Sequence record: PZ386974.1
Reading direction: 5' to 3' (one strand)
Source: a phage
DNA: 64,000 bases
Shown here: positions 42,216 to 55,662 of the stretch, piece after piece
How the letters are laid out: each line of letters begins with the position of its first letter
How positions within the stretch are numbered: position 1 is the first letter of the stretch
Translations under genes and position numbers: made by a program
The notes under the pieces: generated by a model
Seen by the model: the letters and a program-made list of their open reading frames with translations, nothing else
What the model was told of the DNA's origin: nothing
Databases searched by the model: none

Positions 42216-42233
42216 AAGCTCCCGAAGGAGCTT
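42216..42233 (-). terminator. hairpin AAGCUCC-CGAA-GGAGCUU overlapping the gene 39 stop codon
   Basis: 7-bp stem, UUCG loop on transcript, between gene 39 and the glycosyltransferase gene. Confidence 0.45.
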
Positions 42234-44049
42234 AGGACATCCATTCTTTACGAAGTTCTGAATCATCACCCATCAACATTTCAAAGAGTTCTTTCCAATT
42301 TTCAGGAAGTTTAACTACGTCGTACACAGGGTTCTGAATCATTTCACGATATTCTGACTTTTCAAGGGAGCCTAATCCCTTGATGTATCGAATACTATGC
42401 TTAGGCAGTGTATATTTAACTTCTTCATACTCAGCTACAGTATAAAACCATTTTTGAGTTTTGCCAATTTGTGCAATAATTACAGGTGTTTTAACAAAGC
42501 GAATACGTCCTTGTTCAAACAATTCAGGCCAATTACTAAAGAAAGCAAGCAAAGCTGGATAAATGCTTCCAAGACCGTCATGATCGGCATCAGTCATAAT
42601 TGCAATATTACGATAGTTCGTATTCTCTGCCTTTTCACCAAGAATAAGACCTGTGATAGCACAGATATCAAAGAGCTCTTTGTTCTTCATCATATCAGCA
42701 TATGACATACCCCAGCTATTCATCACCTTACCACGTAATGGGAATCCACCATGTAGTTCACGGTCACGAACATCAATGAGATAACCAATTGCCGAATCAC
42801 CTTCTGTTAAGAACAATGTCGTATCTGCATCTTTACCACATTGGTTAGCTTTAATATGCTTATGAACCTTAGCTTTAGTTGCCTTTTTAGCTGCTTTAGT
42901 TTCTGCAGCCTTTTCTGCCGCCAATTTACGAGCTAATGCTGCTTCAACAATAGGCATAATCAAGGCTTCGTTTTTAAGAAGTGCCTGAGCAATTTTCTTA
43001 GCATCTAATTGGATATGATTACGAATATCACCATATGTTGACGTTAAACGTTCTTTAGTCTGAGAATCAAAACGCATGTTGCTCATGTCTCTAATAAACA
43101 TCAACATTGTGAGACATTCTTTAACACGAGCTTTAGTGACTTCAATACCCTTATATTTCTTTTTAATACCGGGCAAAAGATGTTCGCAGATATCATCCAT
43201 TACACATTCAACATGATGACCACCATTTTTAGTATGGATGTTATTCACATAAGTTAAATGACGGAAGCCATCTGGTGATGTTGTGAATGCTATAGAGACT
43301 TTATCATTTTCTTGAATGATGTTATCTTCGCCAAATTGTTTAGCAAATCGTTTAAAATTACCATCAACCTTTTTACCATTAAATGTGAACTTGATATCAG
43401 GATAAACGACTGCCAACGTTTGAAGTCGGTCTAAAGTAATATCTAAATAAACTTGAGATAAATTATGCTCTTCAAATGAAGAGAAATCAGGAGTGAAGAT
43501 TACTTTAGTGCCTTTACCTTTAGATTTCTTAGAAGACCATGATTTGTTTTCCATTCCGTTTGAACAGTTAACAGTGATTTCATTTTCGCCATCTGACGTG
43601 ATGCCTGTAAACAACGTAGAGAAGATATTAGTTAAACTACTCCCGACGCCGTTCATACCACCAGTCTTGCGTTCAGAGTCATCACCAAAGTTACCACCGG
43701 CCTTTGGAATAGTCCAGGCTGCTACAGGCCCAGGAATTTGTTCACCTGTTTGGTCTGTAACTAAACCTTGAGGAATACCACGTCCGTTATCTTCCACCGA
43801 AACTTGATTATTTTTAATTTGCACATCAATTTTATTTGCAAACTTAAATGATGTACGAATAGCTTCATCAACCGAGTTGTCAATAATCTCATCGATTAAT
43901 TTAACCAGACCAGGAACATATTCAACTTGCTGATATTTACCAAACAAAAAACGCTCATGTGCTTCTTTGGCCGAAGAACCAATATACATACCACTGCGTT
44001 TCTTAATATGTTCTACATCTGACAATACCTTAATTTCATTTTTAATCAT
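42232..44049 (-). CDS. 39: DNA topoisomerase II large subunit gp39 (single ORF covering the T4 gene 39 + gene 60 equivalent)
   Basis: 605 aa uninterrupted; GHKL ATPase (Bergerat) motifs in the N-terminal half and a TOPRIM region at the C-terminus; ATG start. Confidence 0.92.
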   Translation of the reverse strand: MIKNEIKVLSDVEHIKKRSGMYIGSSAKEAHERFLFGKYQQVEYVPGLVKLIDEIIDNSVDEAIRTSFKFANKIDVQIKNNQVSVEDNGRGIPQGLVTDQTGEQIPGPVAAWTIPKAGGNFGDDSERKTGGMNGVGSSLTNIFSTLFTGITSDGENEITVNCSNGMENKSWSSKKSKGKGTKVIFTPDFSSFEEHNLSQVYLDITLDRLQTLAVVYPDIKFTFNGKKVDGNFKRFAKQFGEDNIIQENDKVSIAFTTSPDGFRHLTYVNNIHTKNGGHHVECVMDDICEHLLPGIKKKYKGIEVTKARVKECLTMLMFIRDMSNMRFDSQTKERLTSTYGDIRNHIQLDAKKIAQALLKNEALIMPIVEAALARKLAAEKAAETKAAKKATKAKVHKHIKANQCGKDADTTLFLTEGDSAIGYLIDVRDRELHGGFPLRGKVMNSWGMSYADMMKNKELFDICAITGLILGEKAENTNYRNIAIMTDADHDGLGSIYPALLAFFSNWPELFEQGRIRFVKTPVIIAQIGKTQKWFYTVAEYEEVKYTLPKHSIRYIKGLGSLEKSEYREMIQNPVYDVVKLPENWKELFEMLMGDDSELRKEWMS

Positions 44050-44100
44050 GTTGTCTCCTCGTTATGAAGGTATTCTATCATCCGAAATCTAAAGCAAAAA

Positions 44101-44112
44101 GGGCCGAAGCCC
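44101..44112 (-). terminator. hairpin GGGC-CGAA-GCCC flanked by A5/T-rich runs
   Basis: Between ORF 44113..44535 stop and gene 39 start. Confidence 0.45.
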
Positions 44113-44535
44113 TTATTTAAATTTAATTTTCTGAAGTGCATCAATTGCAGCCAAACGCCCTTGTTCACTTTTAACTGTAATGACCACATCGCCTGATACG
44201 ATCACCGAACCATCAACAAATTCTATAGAGCCTTTTTTGAAATCGACAGCTGTATCTGGTTCCGGAACTTCTTCAAAGAATTTAAATTCTGCACCATAAA
44301 GCAGAATATCACCTTGCATACTAATGATTGTACGTCCAGGTCCATCGGTTTCAGCGGCAATCATTGAAACACCGTAACCAATCATCTCTTCTACAATAAA
44401 ATCTCTTGATAATAAAACTGTATGCAGAGTAGTGTTAAGACGTTTACCAGTTGTATTAAGAATTCTCAAGAAATTATCTTCTTGACCTTTGATAATACGA
44501 TATTTCTTACCAACTTCAAAACCTTTAAAAGCCAT
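44113..44535 (-). CDS. hypothetical protein (140 aa)
   Basis: ORF track; ATG start; occupies the slot upstream of gene 39 where T4 has goF/39.x. Confidence 0.5.
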   Translation of the reverse strand: MAFKGFEVGKKYRIIKGQEDNFLRILNTTGKRLNTTLHTVLLSRDFIVEEMIGYGVSMIAAETDGPGRTIISMQGDILLYGAEFKFFEEVPEPDTAVDFKKGSIEFVDGSVIVSGDVVITVKSEQGRLAAIDALQKIKFK

Positions 44536-44537
44536 AA

Positions 44538-44717
44538 TTAACCCTTCTTAAGTAAGTCGTAAAAACCACCGTTCACATGTTTAGGAGCAGAAACCCGACG
44601 AGTAGACAGACGATGACATTCAGGGCAAACATCGTTTTCTCGTTCAGAAATCCTTTTAATTTTTTCATATTCATGGCCACAATCTTCAGATTGGCATTTA
44701 TAGTCGTATAACGGCAT
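44538..44717 (-). CDS. FmdB-family zinc-ribbon protein (59 aa)
   Basis: Own translation [41 protein letters not shown]...; CxxxxC...CxxC pattern; TAATG coupling upstream. Confidence 0.45.
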   Translation of the reverse strand: MPLYDYKCQSEDCGHEYEKIKRISERENDVCPECHRLSTRRVSAPKHVNGGFYDLLKKG

Positions 44718-45130
44718 TATTGTTCCTTAAAGTGAGCTTTCAACATTTGATACAAAGACCATGCCTGGTCATTATTTTCGATAGTAATCGTCATCACAGG
44801 AAATTCAGACAATTCGTCAAGTTCACCAGAATCTTGCTCTTCGGACGCTTGATATGGATTTCCAACTTCGTCAAAGAACTCTGCTTCATTCGTGGAGAGC
44901 CAGATAAAGTTTTCATCAAGGATATCACCACCTGTTGCGTATCCAACCATGCCAGTAGATGTCACAATTTTAGTAGGACGACCAAGATGGTCAACATCTA
45001 ATACTTTAAATGGTTCCATGCCAAGACGTCGTGCATAAATCCCATTATCAGTGTGGTCTTTAATAAACTCTTCTTGGGCACGTTTATCTATGAACTGATA
45101 CCATTTATTAACTTCAAATTTATTAGCCAT
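44717..45130 (-). CDS. hypothetical acidic protein (137 aa)
   Basis: Track start 45148 is TTG; ATG at 45130 forms TAATG overlap with upstream stop. Confidence 0.5.
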
Positions 45131-45998: not shown

Positions 45999-46418
45999 TT
46001 ATGCGAAAGCCGCTGGGCTATATTTTTTAATTTGGAATTCAGGAACTACCATGAACTGTCCAGCAAAAACAATATTGTAGAGCTTGACGCCATCTTCTAT
46101 CCAACGGTCGCTAATAAATCCGGCGATTTGCTTAGTTTTCCATGGCGTTCCATCAGTTGCCGCAGCAATAGTGAATTCATGGTCTTTTTCAACAGAAACT
46201 GATCTGCATAGTCCCCATTTGAACGCACGTTCTTCTGGCTCAATGAACTGGCTTGAGACGTAGCCAATATTACCATTGGCATCACGAACTTTAACTTGGT
46301 TACGACCAAAAACCGGATCACTCACAGAAAGAACTTCAACCAACTTCCCGGCAACTTTAGAGCGAGAAGCAACAGATACATATACGTAATCACCTGTAGA
46401 GAGATTTACAATATTCAT
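45999..46418 (-). CDS. hypothetical protein, paralog family member A (139 aa)
   Basis: Shares N-terminal SVASRSKVAGKLVEV and C-terminal GFISDRWIEDGVKLYNIVF blocks with the next two ORFs. Confidence 0.55.
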   Translation of the reverse strand: MNIVNLSTGDYVYVSVASRSKVAGKLVEVLSVSDPVFGRNQVKVRDANGNIGYVSSQFIEPEERAFKWGLCRSVSVEKDHEFTIAAATDGTPWKTKQIAGFISDRWIEDGVKLYNIVFAGQFMVVPEFQIKKYSPAAFA

Positions 46419-46427
46419 AATAATTCC

Positions 46428-46892
46428 TTAAGCTTTACGAGGAGACACATAGCGAGTGATTTCAGATTCTTTAACAACTCGGAAGTCACCTAAGAATACG
46501 ATATTGTATAACTTTTCACCATCTTCAACCCATTGGTCACTAATGAAGCCACACATAGTATCAGTTTTGCTTGGATAACCGTATTCATCGATGAAGTCAA
46601 ATTCTTTATCGGTTATAAATTCAACGCCTTTGCAAAGGGCCCATTTGAACTGTGTAGTAGGCTCAACGATATCGCTTGAAGCAAAGTGGGCACTTACACG
46701 AGTTTCCAAGAATTTAGGACTTACATAGGCGAACTGAGTTTCAGTTTTTCCAGAACTAGGAATGATTCGAACTTTAACTTCTTTAATACGTCCCATGCCA
46801 TTTGTGCGAAGTCCGACAACTTCAACCAGACGACCTGCGGCTTTAGAACGGGATGCAGTTGATACACGCTTAATTTCACCAATATTAATCAT
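46428..46892 (-). CDS. hypothetical protein, paralog family member B (154 aa)
   Basis: Track ORF 46428..46955; ATG at 46892 gives an N-terminus MINIGEIKRVSTASRSKAAGRLVEV aligned with paralog A. Confidence 0.55.
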   Translation of the reverse strand: MINIGEIKRVSTASRSKAAGRLVEVVGLRTNGMGRIKEVKVRIIPSSGKTETQFAYVSPKFLETRVSAHFASSDIVEPTTQFKWALCKGVEFITDKEFDFIDEYGYPSKTDTMCGFISDQWVEDGEKLYNIVFLGDFRVVKESEITRYVSPRKA

Positions 46893-46954
46893 ATTTTTTC
46901 TCTCTTTGTTTAAATTGAATTCATTATACTCCATCCATCCTTGGATGTACAACA

Positions 46955-47449
46955 TTAATTTAGAATATTAACCATAGCACTACGTGGAACTACACTAAAA
47001 TCACCTGCATGAACAACGTTCAGAAGTTCAACACCGTCTTCAATCCACTGATCAGTTACCCATCCACTCACTGGACCTGCGAACGGACGTCGAATTGAAA
47101 CAGCTTTACACAACAAATCAGTAGGCTCAATAGGCTTAATCAGAGTACCGTACATACAAGCGATATCCATATCAATACAGATGTCTTTAACGGGTTCTAC
47201 TTCTTCAATCAACAGTTCAAAGTCAGTGCTTGGAATGGCGGTAGTAGAAATTGTACCGTGTGAATTTTTAATTTCTAAGAATAACCAAGGGCCTTCAGCT
47301 TGTTTGATGAAGTTAACAATAGTGAAACTATTACCTTGAGTGGCACCTAAAATTTCACAAAACTTTTCATAAGCTCGCACTGAAGCACCGTACCAGTTGA
47401 TTTGTTTTTCGTCTTTCATGATGTAAGTAGCCGTAGTATTGATGTTCAT
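46955..47449 (-). CDS. hypothetical protein, paralog family member C (164 aa)
   Basis: C-terminal block GWVTDQWIEDGVELLNVVHAGDF homologous to paralogs A/B; sits in the dexA-proximal slot where T4 has motB/dexA.x. Confidence 0.55.
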   Translation of the reverse strand: MNINTTATYIMKDEKQINWYGASVRAYEKFCEILGATQGNSFTIVNFIKQAEGPWLFLEIKNSHGTISTTAIPSTDFELLIEEVEPVKDICIDMDIACMYGTLIKPIEPTDLLCKAVSIRRPFAGPVSGWVTDQWIEDGVELLNVVHAGDFSVVPRSAMVNILN

Positions 47450-54445: not shown

Positions 54446-54643
54446 ATGTTTAAACTTCCATCGTTAATCAACGCTATTAAAGGCAATAAAAAGAAAACTG
54501 CTATCGCTGCAATAGTTGTAGGTGGCATTATTTCATGGAACTTCGGGATTGCACCATTGTTAGTTGCCCATGGTATTATAGTTCCTTCTGTTCCATTGGA
54601 TACTGTAGTTGATTTGGCCTTTGCTATTATAGGGCTTGTTTAA
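54446..54643 (+). CDS. small membrane protein (65 aa, two predicted TM segments)
   Basis: Plus-strand ORF with strong SD AAGGAG 5 nt before ATG; stop overlaps the gene 61 stop convergently. Confidence 0.5.
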   Translation: MFKLPSLINAIKGNKKKTAIAAIVVGGIISWNFGIAPLLVAHGIIVPSVPLDTVVDLAFAIIGLV

Positions 54644-55662
54644 ATCTTCGAATAACGAGATAATCTCATTTTAGCATGCAACCCACTTGAAATATTCTGT
54701 TTCATATATTCTAAAATTTCTTGTGGTGTTGCATTTTCTTTCATTACCATATCATTCACATCCTTTGATCTCCATGGAGCTCGATCCCAGAACATGACAC
54801 GTTCGCCTGCATCAACTAATCGCTTCATGCGAGCTATAGTATCCGGATGCCTAGGTTCATTATCCATTACCCATACCCGACGCTCTTTAAATGGTACCAC
54901 ATCTAAATCTATTGAGCCGCCTGTAATAGCGATTGCGTTGGGTATGAATAAACTATCAATAGGACCTTCCATTACCCAGACGTCCCCTTCCTTAACACGT
55001 TCAACACCATAAATTTTTGTTGCAGACTCAAACGCTTTAATAGTGATATATTTCTGAGGAGCATCTTTACGAAGTGCACGTCCTTGGAACGACTCTGCCT
55101 TCCCATCTTTATTAAAAATAGGAATCACTAAACGCGGTTCAGGAATCTCTTTCTTATACGTACCCGGTTGAATCTTGTTGACCAATTTAGGCCATTCTAA
55201 TGTGAACCATAATCTGTTCCATGATTCTTTAGGAATGCATCGAGACTTAACATATTTCACAATAGGATGCTCTTCAGGCAGCTTGTCCAGACGAGAACAA
55301 GACGGCAAAGAATTTATAGTCTTTTTCTCCGGTTCTGGTTTATGTTCAGGAACCTTTTCAATCTTTGGTTCCATTCTAGCTTTTTCTTTACGAACTTCCA
55401 TTAGATACTCACGATAAAGCTCTTCATCATACTCTTTTAAGTATCCGGAAATTGTATTGTGGTATTGACAGTTATAGCAATGTACATTACCAGGAGTACC
55501 GCCATAATACCACCCGCGAGCTTTCATTGCATCTGTCTGGGAGTCGCCACAAACTGGACATCGAAACGTTAATTTAAATGTGCTTGAATTATTGATTTGT
55601 CTAAAACGAGGGAGGTGAGAAAACGCACGATAAGCAAATTCATTATCTATCCATTCAGCCAT
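54640..55662 (-). CDS. 61: DNA primase gp61
   Basis: 340 aa; N-terminal zinc ribbon CPVCGDS...CYNC and TOPRIM core; matches T4 gp61; ATG start. Confidence 0.9.
   Translation of the reverse strand: MAEWIDNEFAYRAFSHLPRFRQINNSSTFKLTFRCPVCGDSQTDAMKARGWYYGGTPGNVHCYNCQYHNTISGYLKEYDEELYREYLMEVRKEKARMEPKIEKVPEHKPEPEKKTINSLPSCSRLDKLPEEHPIVKYVKSRCIPKESWNRLWFTLEWPKLVNKIQPGTYKKEIPEPRLVIPIFNKDGKAESFQGRALRKDAPQKYITIKAFESATKIYGVERVKEGDVWVMEGPIDSLFIPNAIAITGGSIDLDVVPFKERRVWVMDNEPRHPDTIARMKRLVDAGERVMFWDRAPWRSKDVNDMVMKENATPQEILEYMKQNISSGLHAKMRLSRYSKI

What the first reader, a model, noticed from the sequence alone, without database searches (positions are those of the whole stretch)
44538..44717. Unannotated FmdB-type zinc-ribbon micro-protein
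A 59-aa ORF below the track cutoff encodes [20 protein letters not shown]...CPECH, the C-x4-C ... C-x2-C pattern of FmdB-family zinc ribbons, translationally coupled (TAATG) to its upstream neighbour. Such proteins are often regulatory and easily missed.
Basis: seen in the sequence. Interest (0 to 1): 0.3.

Follow-up and report, generated by a model that had tools for sequence, protein, structure and literature searches.

The report
Known T-even phage gene 39.2 (NwgI)
The 59-codon reading frame is a real, strongly conserved gene, but it is the already catalogued gene 39.2 of T4/RB69-type phages, a small zinc-ribbon protein reported in 2012 to tune the host's GroEL protein-folding machine, so the finding is correct but ordinary.

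Summary
The ORF exists as described, at 44538..44717, but on the minus strand. It has an ATG start, a TAA stop, an AAGGA ribosome-binding site 6 nt upstream and a TAATG overlap with the upstream gene goF. It scores above the curated cut-offs of Pfam Zn_ribbon_8 (PF09723, 49.3 vs 34.4 bits) and NCBIfam TIGR02605, "FmdB family zinc ribbon protein" (48 vs 31.3 bits). All four Cys are kept in 141-149 of 149 aligned sequences. dN/dS among T-even orthologues is 0.00-0.13.

The gene is not new. The window is a Mosigvirus (RB69/JS09-like, 98% nt identity). The protein is 59/59 identical to RB69 NP_861696.1 (annotated as similar to a T4 protein; the identical JS09 copy is noted "gp39.2") and 82% identical to the 58-aa T4 Gp39.2. 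It lies in the conserved order 39 – ORF005c – 39.2 – goF – cef – motB. tblastn finds it in 956 phage records, many annotated "zinc ribbon domain protein" or "FmdB-like transcriptional regulator".

T4 Gp39.2 (NwgI; Ang & Georgopoulos 2012) is described as shifting GroEL towards its open, co-chaperonin-binding state, and a T4 39.2 deletion cannot grow on certain groEL mutant hosts. The name "transcriptional regulator" is inherited from the family and untested.

Verdict: already known, low interest.

The parts
44538..44717 (-). CDS of gene 39.2 (NwgI orthologue), 59 aa plus stop; FmdB/Zn_ribbon_8 zinc-ribbon protein
   Evidence: ORF list and sequence. Pfam PF09723 49.3 bits, TIGR02605 48 bits, phrog_1076. 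59/59 identical to RB69 NP_861696.1; 47/57 identical to T4 GT7 Gp39.2. dN/dS 0.00-0.13.
44679..44696 (-). First zinc knuckle, C8-QSED-C13 (C-x4-C variant)
   Evidence: Translation. C8 present in 147/149 and C13 in 141/149 aligned sequences (His in 4). The two extra residues are shared by about 44/149; the rest have C-x2-C.
44616..44627 (-). Second zinc knuckle, C31-PE-C34 (C-P-x-C)
   Evidence: C31 in 148/149, P32 in 138/149 and C34 in 149/149 aligned sequences. Coordinates confirmed by regex scan.
44541..44588 (-). C-terminal tail APKHVNGGFYDLLKKG containing the conserved G-(F/W)-Y motif; predicted short helix at residues 52-57 with lower confidence
   Evidence: G51 in 113/149, F/W52 in 93/149 and Y53 in 67/149 sequences. 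The tail is invariant (SAPKHVNGGFYDLL) among T-even orthologues. AlphaFold pLDDT is 58-67 here against about 90 for residues 1-40.
44724..44728 (-). Shine-Dalgarno AAGGA, 6 nt upstream of the ATG, inside the 3' end of goF
   Evidence: Sequence. Invariant in window, JS09, moskry, T4 RefSeq and T4 GT7.
44717..44719 (-). Stop codon TAA of goF, overlapping the 39.2 ATG by one base (TAATG)
   Evidence: Sequence. Seen in window and moskry only; JS09, RB69 and T4 stop one codon earlier, leaving a 2-nt gap.
44717..45130 (-). Upstream neighbour goF (comC-alpha) homologue, 137 aa from the annotated ATG
   Evidence: phrog_622 and goF phrogs. Annotated as goF / RNA metabolism moderator in JS09, moskry and RB69.
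44113..44535 (-). Downstream neighbour, RB69ORF005c homologue (140 aa), a goF-like paralogue; occupies the position of T4 39.1
   Evidence: phrog_622, E = 2e-19. Annotations in JS09 and RB69.
42232..44049 (-). Gene 39 (fused 60+39), DNA topoisomerase II large subunit, 605 aa; the synteny anchor
   Evidence: ORF list. Annotations in JS09, RB69 and moskry.

Best explanation
This is gene 39.2 of a Mosigvirus (RB69-like T-even phage). It encodes a 59-residue protein with a four-cysteine zinc ribbon (residues 1-40) and a short conserved tail (SAPKHVNGGFYDLL). It sits in the rIIA-39-motB-dexA gene block on the same strand as its neighbours and has its own AAGGA ribosome-binding site inside the end of goF. 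By orthology with T4 Gp39.2 (NwgI), the protein most likely acts on the host GroEL/GroES chaperonin. It would bias GroEL towards the open conformation that binds the co-chaperonin (host GroES or phage gp31). That would keep folding of GroEL-dependent phage proteins efficient on hosts whose chaperonin is suboptimal. Shown here: the ORF, family membership, Cys conservation, purifying selection, identity to RB69 gp39.2, and synteny. Taken from the literature on the T4 orthologue: the effect on GroEL and the host-range phenotype of the deletion. Inferred: that this identical-to-RB69 protein does the same, that it binds zinc, and which surface contacts GroEL.
For: Identity: 59/59 to RB69 NP_861696.1, whose identical JS09 copy is noted 'gp39.2 conserved hypothetical protein'. 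47/57 (82%) identical to the 58-aa protein encoded by T4 GT7. Synteny: 39 - ORF005c/39.1 - 39.2 - goF - cef - motB is the same in window, JS09, RB69 and T4. The gene also lies next to or near the topoisomerase gene and dexA in Moonvirus and Krischvirus. Real coding gene: dN/dS 0.00-0.13 with dS up to saturation. Family: PF09723 and TIGR02605 above cut-off. Cys conserved in 141-149 of 149 aligned sequences. AlphaFold model with pLDDT about 90 over residues 1-40, consisting of four short beta-strands, as expected of a zinc ribbon. [quoted passage not shown] It says genetic and biochemical studies suggest it shifts GroEL toward the 'open' conformation able to bind GroES-type co-chaperones, and that a T4 39.2 deletion is completely blocked on specific groEL mutant hosts. 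PMC4396842 summarises the same. From my own memory of the abstract of Ang & Georgopoulos 2012 (Genetics 190:989; not held in the library), the original selection recovered the RB69 39.2 gene itself, which is identical to this ORF.
Against: I could not read the primary paper here, so the mechanism rests on secondary descriptions and memory. No direct binding site on GroEL or structure is known to me, and no PDB relative exists by sequence (best E = 0.32) or by fold (best E = 0.42). The published phenotype is subtle and conditional, since the deletion is viable on ordinary K-12 hosts, so GroEL may not be the only or the main target. Zinc binding is inferred from the Cys pattern only.
Confidence: 0.75

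Rival explanations
1. It is a transcriptional regulator, as the widespread annotation 'FmdB-like transcriptional regulator' implies: the zinc ribbon binds DNA or RNA polymerase and changes transcription of phage or host genes.
For: PHROG 1076 and many RefSeq records carry this name. The gene lies among early modulators of gene expression (goF, cef, motB). The weak, non-significant fold matches include zinc-ribbon proteins that bind RNA polymerase or sigma factors, such as RbpA and the YdjO-SigA model (E of 0.4 or more).
Against: The name is inherited from the Pfam/TIGRFAM family, and I found no tested case: the search for 'FmdB' plus 'zinc ribbon' returned one unrelated paper. Pfam finds no DNA-binding domain beyond the 40-residue ribbon. 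The only experiments I found described for an orthologue point to GroEL. All fold matches are below significance.
Confidence: 0.08
2. It is a small zinc-ribbon adaptor whose main natural target is some other host or phage protein, for example a defence or stress factor. On this reading the GroEL effects seen on overproduction are secondary.
For: The deletion phenotype is conditional. Small zinc ribbons are generic protein-protein or protein-nucleic acid modules. The family is very broad, with 252 representatives at E <= 1e-3 across phages and cells, and with multi-ribbon proteins, so one dedicated GroEL function for all members is unlikely.
Against: The secondary accounts report both genetic and biochemical support for the GroEL link, together with a loss-of-function phenotype specific to groEL mutant hosts. 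No evidence for another partner turned up.
Confidence: 0.15
3. It is a chance ORF, or a non-coding spacer between goF and ORF005c.
For: It is short (59 codons) in an AT-rich genome. The T4 GT7 record leaves it unannotated, and T4 RefSeq carries a truncated 45-aa version.
Against: Profile E-values of about 1e-12. dN/dS of 0.00-0.13 with saturated synonymous change. An invariant SD. Conservation across at least four genera with the four Cys kept.
Confidence: 0.01

Closest known systems
RB69 gp39.2 (NP_861696.1, RB69p006) and identical proteins in Mosigvirus phages (JS09_0174, moskry_26, p000v, SF and others)
   Same: 59/59 identical amino-acid sequence, with the same position between RB69ORF005c and goF on the same strand. 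135 phage records have a tblastn match of at least 99% identity.
   Different: Nothing at the protein level. At the DNA level the window and moskry have a C where JS09, RB69 and T4 have a T, which lengthens goF by one codon and creates the TAATG overlap.
T4 Gp39.2 = NwgI (Ang & Georgopoulos 2012, Genetics 190:989-1000), modulator of GroEL/GroES
   Same: 82% identity over 57 residues with no gaps. It has the same C-x4-C ... C-x2-C pattern, the same SAPKHVNGGFYDLL tail, and the same genomic slot between gene 39 and goF.
   Different: 10 substitutions, mostly in the loop between the knuckles and after the second knuckle (G14A, H15K, S38A, T39V, R41L and others), and one extra C-terminal residue. 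The T4 neighbour is 39.1 (65 aa) instead of the 140-aa ORF005c. The function was not tested here.
FmdB family zinc ribbon / Pfam Zn_ribbon_8 (PF09723), NCBIfam TIGR02605 CxxC_CxxC_SSSS
   Same: An N-terminal M-P-x-Y-x-Y-x-C start, G-H-x-F/Y-E after the first knuckle, a C-P-x-C second knuckle, and full-length profile matches above the cut-offs.
   Different: The first knuckle is C-x4-C rather than the family's eponymous C-x2-C; about 30% of the retrieved relatives share this. There is no Ser-rich tail; the tail is G-G-F-Y-D-L-L instead. 'FmdB' is named as a putative regulator, and that role is not established for this protein.

Membership tests
FmdB family zinc ribbon (Pfam PF09723 Zn_ribbon_8 / NCBIfam TIGR02605) | Profile score above the curated cut-off over the whole domain | tested here: met
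   PF09723: 49.3 bits against a cut-off of 34.4, residues 1-42 on profile positions 1-40 of 41. TIGR02605: 48.0 bits against 31.3, residues 1-44 on profile positions 1-42 of 52.
FmdB family zinc ribbon (Pfam PF09723 Zn_ribbon_8 / NCBIfam TIGR02605) | Two cysteine knuckles (four Cys) conserved in homologues | tested here: met
   C8 147/149, C13 141/149 (His in 4), C31 148/149, C34 149/149. The first knuckle is the C-x4-C variant rather than C-x2-C. All four Cys are invariant in every T-even orthologue read.
FmdB family zinc ribbon (Pfam PF09723 Zn_ribbon_8 / NCBIfam TIGR02605) | Zinc-ribbon fold (two beta-hairpin knuckles) | tested here: inconclusive
   The AlphaFold2 model has mean pLDDT 81, about 90 for residues 1-40, with strands at 3-8, 16-20, 28-30 and 37-40. 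This is compatible with a zinc ribbon. Foldseek against the PDB gives no significant match (best E = 0.42); the top hits are zinc-ribbon modules of MCM, RbpA, RNA polymerase subunit P and ribosomal proteins.
FmdB family zinc ribbon (Pfam PF09723 Zn_ribbon_8 / NCBIfam TIGR02605) | Actual zinc binding | not testable with these tools
   Needs metal analysis of purified protein.
T-even phage Gp39.2 / NwgI orthologous group | Full-length sequence similarity to T4 and RB69 Gp39.2 | tested here: met
   59/59 identical to RB69 NP_861696.1. 47/57 identical and 52/57 similar to T4 GT7 Gp39.2, with no gaps.
T-even phage Gp39.2 / NwgI orthologous group | Conserved genomic position: same strand, between topoisomerase gene 39 and goF/cef/motB | tested here: met
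   Window ORFs compared with JS09, moskry, T4 and RB69. The position is also near the topoisomerase gene and dexA in Moon and ECD7.
T-even phage Gp39.2 / NwgI orthologous group | Modulates GroEL/GroES: suppresses groEL/groES alleles, and the deletion is blocked on groEL mutant hosts | not testable with these tools
   Known only from the literature on T4. The primary paper is not held.
Transcriptional regulators (as in the label 'FmdB-like transcriptional regulator') | A recognisable DNA-binding domain, or experimental evidence of transcription control | tested here: not met
   Pfam finds only the zinc ribbon; other matches (Ogr_Delta 15.9 bits, DUF4379, HypA) are below their cut-offs. The literature searches found no tested regulatory role.

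The most novel reading that the evidence does not exclude
The conserved G-G-F-Y-D-L-L tail behind the ribbon might dock into the hydrophobic groove of the GroEL apical domain, in the manner of the GroES/gp31 mobile loop (Gly-Gly followed by hydrophobic residues). Because a G-(F/W)-Y motif recurs across much of the FmdB family, many of the thousands of cellular and viral 'FmdB-like regulators' could then be chaperonin modulators rather than transcription factors. This is speculation from sequence resemblance. Nothing here tests it, and a simple competitor of GroES would not obviously explain the reported pro-folding effect.
Probability: 0.07. Interest if true: 0.5.

Novelty: already known. Interest (0 to 1): 0.08.

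Why it matters
It matters little as a discovery, because the gene is catalogued and its orthologue has a published function. The practical value lies in annotation. The label 'FmdB-like transcriptional regulator', now spread through RefSeq phage records, is probably misleading for this orthologous group, and 'GroEL modulator Gp39.2/NwgI' would be better founded. A length cut-off near 60 aa hides functional phage genes like this one. The T4 reference record itself carries a truncated version.

Tried and rejected
1. I tried to read the primary paper (Ang & Georgopoulos 2012) by DOI and by PMC id. It is not held, so I used secondary descriptions.

2. A sequence search of the PDB gave only ribosomal protein bL31 at E of about 0.3-0.5, which is not significant.

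3. A Foldseek search of the PDB with the AlphaFold model gave no hit at E <= 0.001, so no structural analogue can be claimed beyond 'generic zinc ribbon'.

4. The promoter scan found 9 sigma-70-like sites against 7.2 +/- 2.8 in shuffles. This is no evidence for a dedicated promoter. The site at 44743..44716 directly upstream is therefore not claimed.

5. The word-indexed homologue search returned only 8 close relatives; the exhaustive HMMER search was needed to see the family.

6. I looked for a second FmdB-type ORF in the window by regex over six frames. There is none; the only other clean 4-Cys ribbon is in the gp61 primase.

7. The chance-ORF explanation is rejected on dN/dS and profile scores.

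8. Conserved translational coupling through TAATG is rejected as a general feature, because relatives have a 2-nt gap.

Full report
**Observation**

The window holds a 59-codon ORF at 44538..44717.
- The ATG is at 44717-44715 and the TAA stop at 44540-44538.
- The product is [59 protein letters not shown].
- The Cys pattern is C8-x4-C13 ...
- The stop codon of the upstream gene (44719-44717) shares one base with the ATG, giving TAATG.
- An AAGGA Shine-Dalgarno lies 6 nt upstream, at 44728-44724.
- The next gene downstream starts 2 nt after the stop.

**Is it a real gene?**

Yes, on four lines of evidence.
- The protein matches Pfam Zn_ribbon_8 (PF09723) at 49.3 bits (cut-off 34.4, E = 5e-13) over the whole 41-position profile.
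- It matches NCBIfam TIGR02605, 'FmdB family zinc ribbon protein', at 48.0 bits (cut-off 31.3), and PHROG 1076.
- tblastn finds it in 956 phage records, 913 of them covering at least 80% of the query.
- Nei-Gojobori counts on seven distinct orthologous DNA sequences give dN/dS of 0.00-0.13 wherever dS could be computed, with synonymous sites close to saturation between lineages; window vs L013, for example, has 26 synonymous and 11 non-synonymous differences.

This is the signature of a translated gene under strong purifying selection.

I aligned the query with 148 representatives of 130 aa or shorter from an exhaustive HMMER search of 1.84 billion proteins (252 hits at E <= 1e-3).
- The four cysteines are kept: C8 in 147/149, C13 in 141/149 (His in 4), C31 in 148/149 and C34 in 149/149.
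- Also nearly invariant are M1, P2, Y4, Y6, E18 and P32.
- A G-(F/W)-Y motif in the tail is common (G51 in 113/149).
- The C-x4-C spacing of the first knuckle is a minority variant, seen in about 44/149; the rest have C-x2-C.
- All T-even orthologues read from IMG/VR loci keep the four Cys and an invariant SAPKHVNGGFYDLL tail.

**What it is**

The 1.4 kb around the ORF is 97-98% identical to Mosigvirus phages (moskry, JS09, O157 typing phages 3 and 6, and others).

Annotation in relatives:
- In moskry it is 'zinc ribbon domain protein'.
- The RB69 protein NP_861696.1 is 59/59 identical to the window ORF.
- T4 strain GT7 encodes a 58-aa protein at the equivalent site that is 47/57 identical, with no gaps.

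Gene order on the minus strand is gene 39 (fused 60+39 topoisomerase, 605 aa) – RB69ORF005c – 39.2 – goF – cef – motB.2 – MotB-like – motB – motB.1 – dexA. It matches RB69 and JS09 exactly, and matches T4 with 39.1 in place of ORF005c.

In more distant T4-like phages the homologue stays in the same neighbourhood. In Moonvirus it follows cef and a goF-position gene and lies upstream of the topoisomerase gene. In Krischvirus ECD7 it sits directly between dexA and the topoisomerase gene. The ORF is therefore the orthologue of T-even gene 39.2.

**How it most likely works**

[quoted passage not shown] I could not obtain the paper itself. Two papers in the library describe its results.
[quoted passage not shown] It says genetic and biochemical studies suggest Gp39.2 shifts GroEL toward its 'open' conformation, capable of binding host- and phage-encoded GroES co-chaperones. 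It also says a T4 39.2 deletion, unlike wild type, is completely blocked on specific groEL mutant hosts.
- PMC4396842 says the same and adds that the deletion is viable on many K-12 strains.
- From my own memory of the abstract, which I could not verify here, the selection originally recovered the RB69 39.2 gene, which is identical to this ORF. I also recall that homologues from T4, RB43 and RB49 behaved alike, and that overproduction is lethal.

On this basis I take the most likely mechanism to be the following. A small zinc-ribbon protein binds or otherwise acts on GroEL. It biases GroEL's conformational equilibrium toward the co-chaperonin-accepting state. This safeguards GroEL-dependent folding of phage proteins on hosts with a suboptimal chaperonin.

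Which steps are shown and which inferred:
- Shown here: orthology, family membership and selection.
- From the literature: the effect on GroEL.
- Inferred: zinc binding, transfer of the function to this protein, and the contact surface.

**Structure**

An AlphaFold2 model built on a 67-sequence alignment has mean pLDDT 81. Confidence is about 90 for residues 1-40, which form four short beta-strands (3-8, 16-20, 28-30, 37-40). Confidence is lower (58-67) for the tail, which has a short helix at 52-57. This is compatible with a zinc ribbon.

No solved structure is related by sequence (best E = 0.32, ribosomal protein bL31). None is related by fold at a significant level (best Foldseek E = 0.42). 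The top-ranked entries are generic zinc-ribbon modules: the MCM N-terminal domain, RbpA, RNA polymerase subunit P and ribosomal proteins. No inference about function can be drawn from these.

**Rivals**

- The widespread label 'FmdB-like transcriptional regulator' comes from the family name. I found no experimental support for it, and there is no DNA-binding domain beyond the ribbon.
- A different primary target cannot be excluded, because the deletion phenotype is conditional.
- A chance ORF is excluded.

**Translational coupling**

The TAATG overlap is present in the window and in moskry. JS09, RB69 and T4 carry a T instead of a C one codon earlier, so goF ends sooner and a 2-nt gap (TAA-TA-ATG or TAA-TT-ATG) separates the genes. 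The AAGGA is invariant in all five sequences. Tight packing and an internal SD are thus conserved, but the overlap is not. Coupling is plausible but untested. The promoter scan gave no more sigma-70-like sites than shuffled sequence (9 against 7.2 +/- 2.8).

**Verdict**

The gene, however, is neither unannotated in public data nor novel. It is RB69-type gene 39.2 (NwgI), whose T4 orthologue has a published function in modulating GroEL. Novelty: already known. Interest: low. The residual value is in annotation quality; see the items noticed in passing.

Noticed in passing
L003 (T4 RefSeq NC_000866.4) 2703-2840; L088 (T4 GT7 KJ477686.1) 601-777: The T4 reference genome annotates 39.2 as only 45 aa. 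A single extra T (GCTTCCTAAG against GCTCCTAAG in T4 GT7 and other T-evens) shifts the frame and cuts off the conserved PKHVNGGFYDLLKG tail. T4 GT7 encodes the full 58 aa but has no CDS annotated there. This is either a sequencing error in the reference or a real lesion in that stock.
   Followed up: partly
window 44717-44722 compared with L001, L002, L003, L088, L089: One C/T polymorphism decides whether goF ends in ...EQ* and overlaps 39.2 (TAATG; window and moskry) or ends one codon earlier and leaves a 2-nt gap (JS09, RB69, T4).
   Followed up: yes
window 44113-44535 and 44717-45130 (both minus strand): The two genes flanking 39.2 (the RB69ORF005c homologue and goF) both match PHROG 622 and goF PHROGs (E = 2e-19 and 8e-40). 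They therefore look like paralogues bracketing the zinc-ribbon gene. T4 has the unrelated-looking 65-aa 39.1 at the ORF005c position.
   Followed up: partly
window 44099-44114: A perfect 6-bp GC-rich hairpin (AAGGGC-TTCG-GCCCTT) followed by T-runs on both strands lies between ORF005c and gene 39. It is terminator-like in both directions, and several related records annotate a 'terminator' here.
   Followed up: no
window 45999-46418, 46428-46955, 46955-47449 (minus strand): Three adjacent MotB/MotB-like/motB.1 ORFs share a C-terminal motif: (F/W)(I/V)(S/T)DQWIEDG..L(Y/L)N(I/V)V.AG.F.VVP. This suggests a tandem paralogue family.
   Followed up: no
window 55468-55560 (minus strand), within ORF 54640-55662: The only other clean C-x2-C ... 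C-x2-C element in the window found in a long ORF is the N-terminal zinc ribbon of a 340-aa ORF, which I take to be the gp61-type DNA primase on my own knowledge of T4 (no family search run).
   Followed up: partly
proteins P0012 (449 aa), P0025 (828 aa), P0042 (792 aa), P0079, P0128: Some large proteins carry 4-6 tandem matches to this 59-aa zinc ribbon, so FmdB-type ribbons also occur as repeated modules.
   Followed up: no
L024 2001-2132 and other IMG/VR loci: A few phage homologues that start with MPLYDYKC lack the second Cys of the first knuckle (for example KCPSGHIFE) or have C-x-C spacing (KCICGK, KCECG). These are variants of the metal site that may use His or may have lost it.
   Followed up: no
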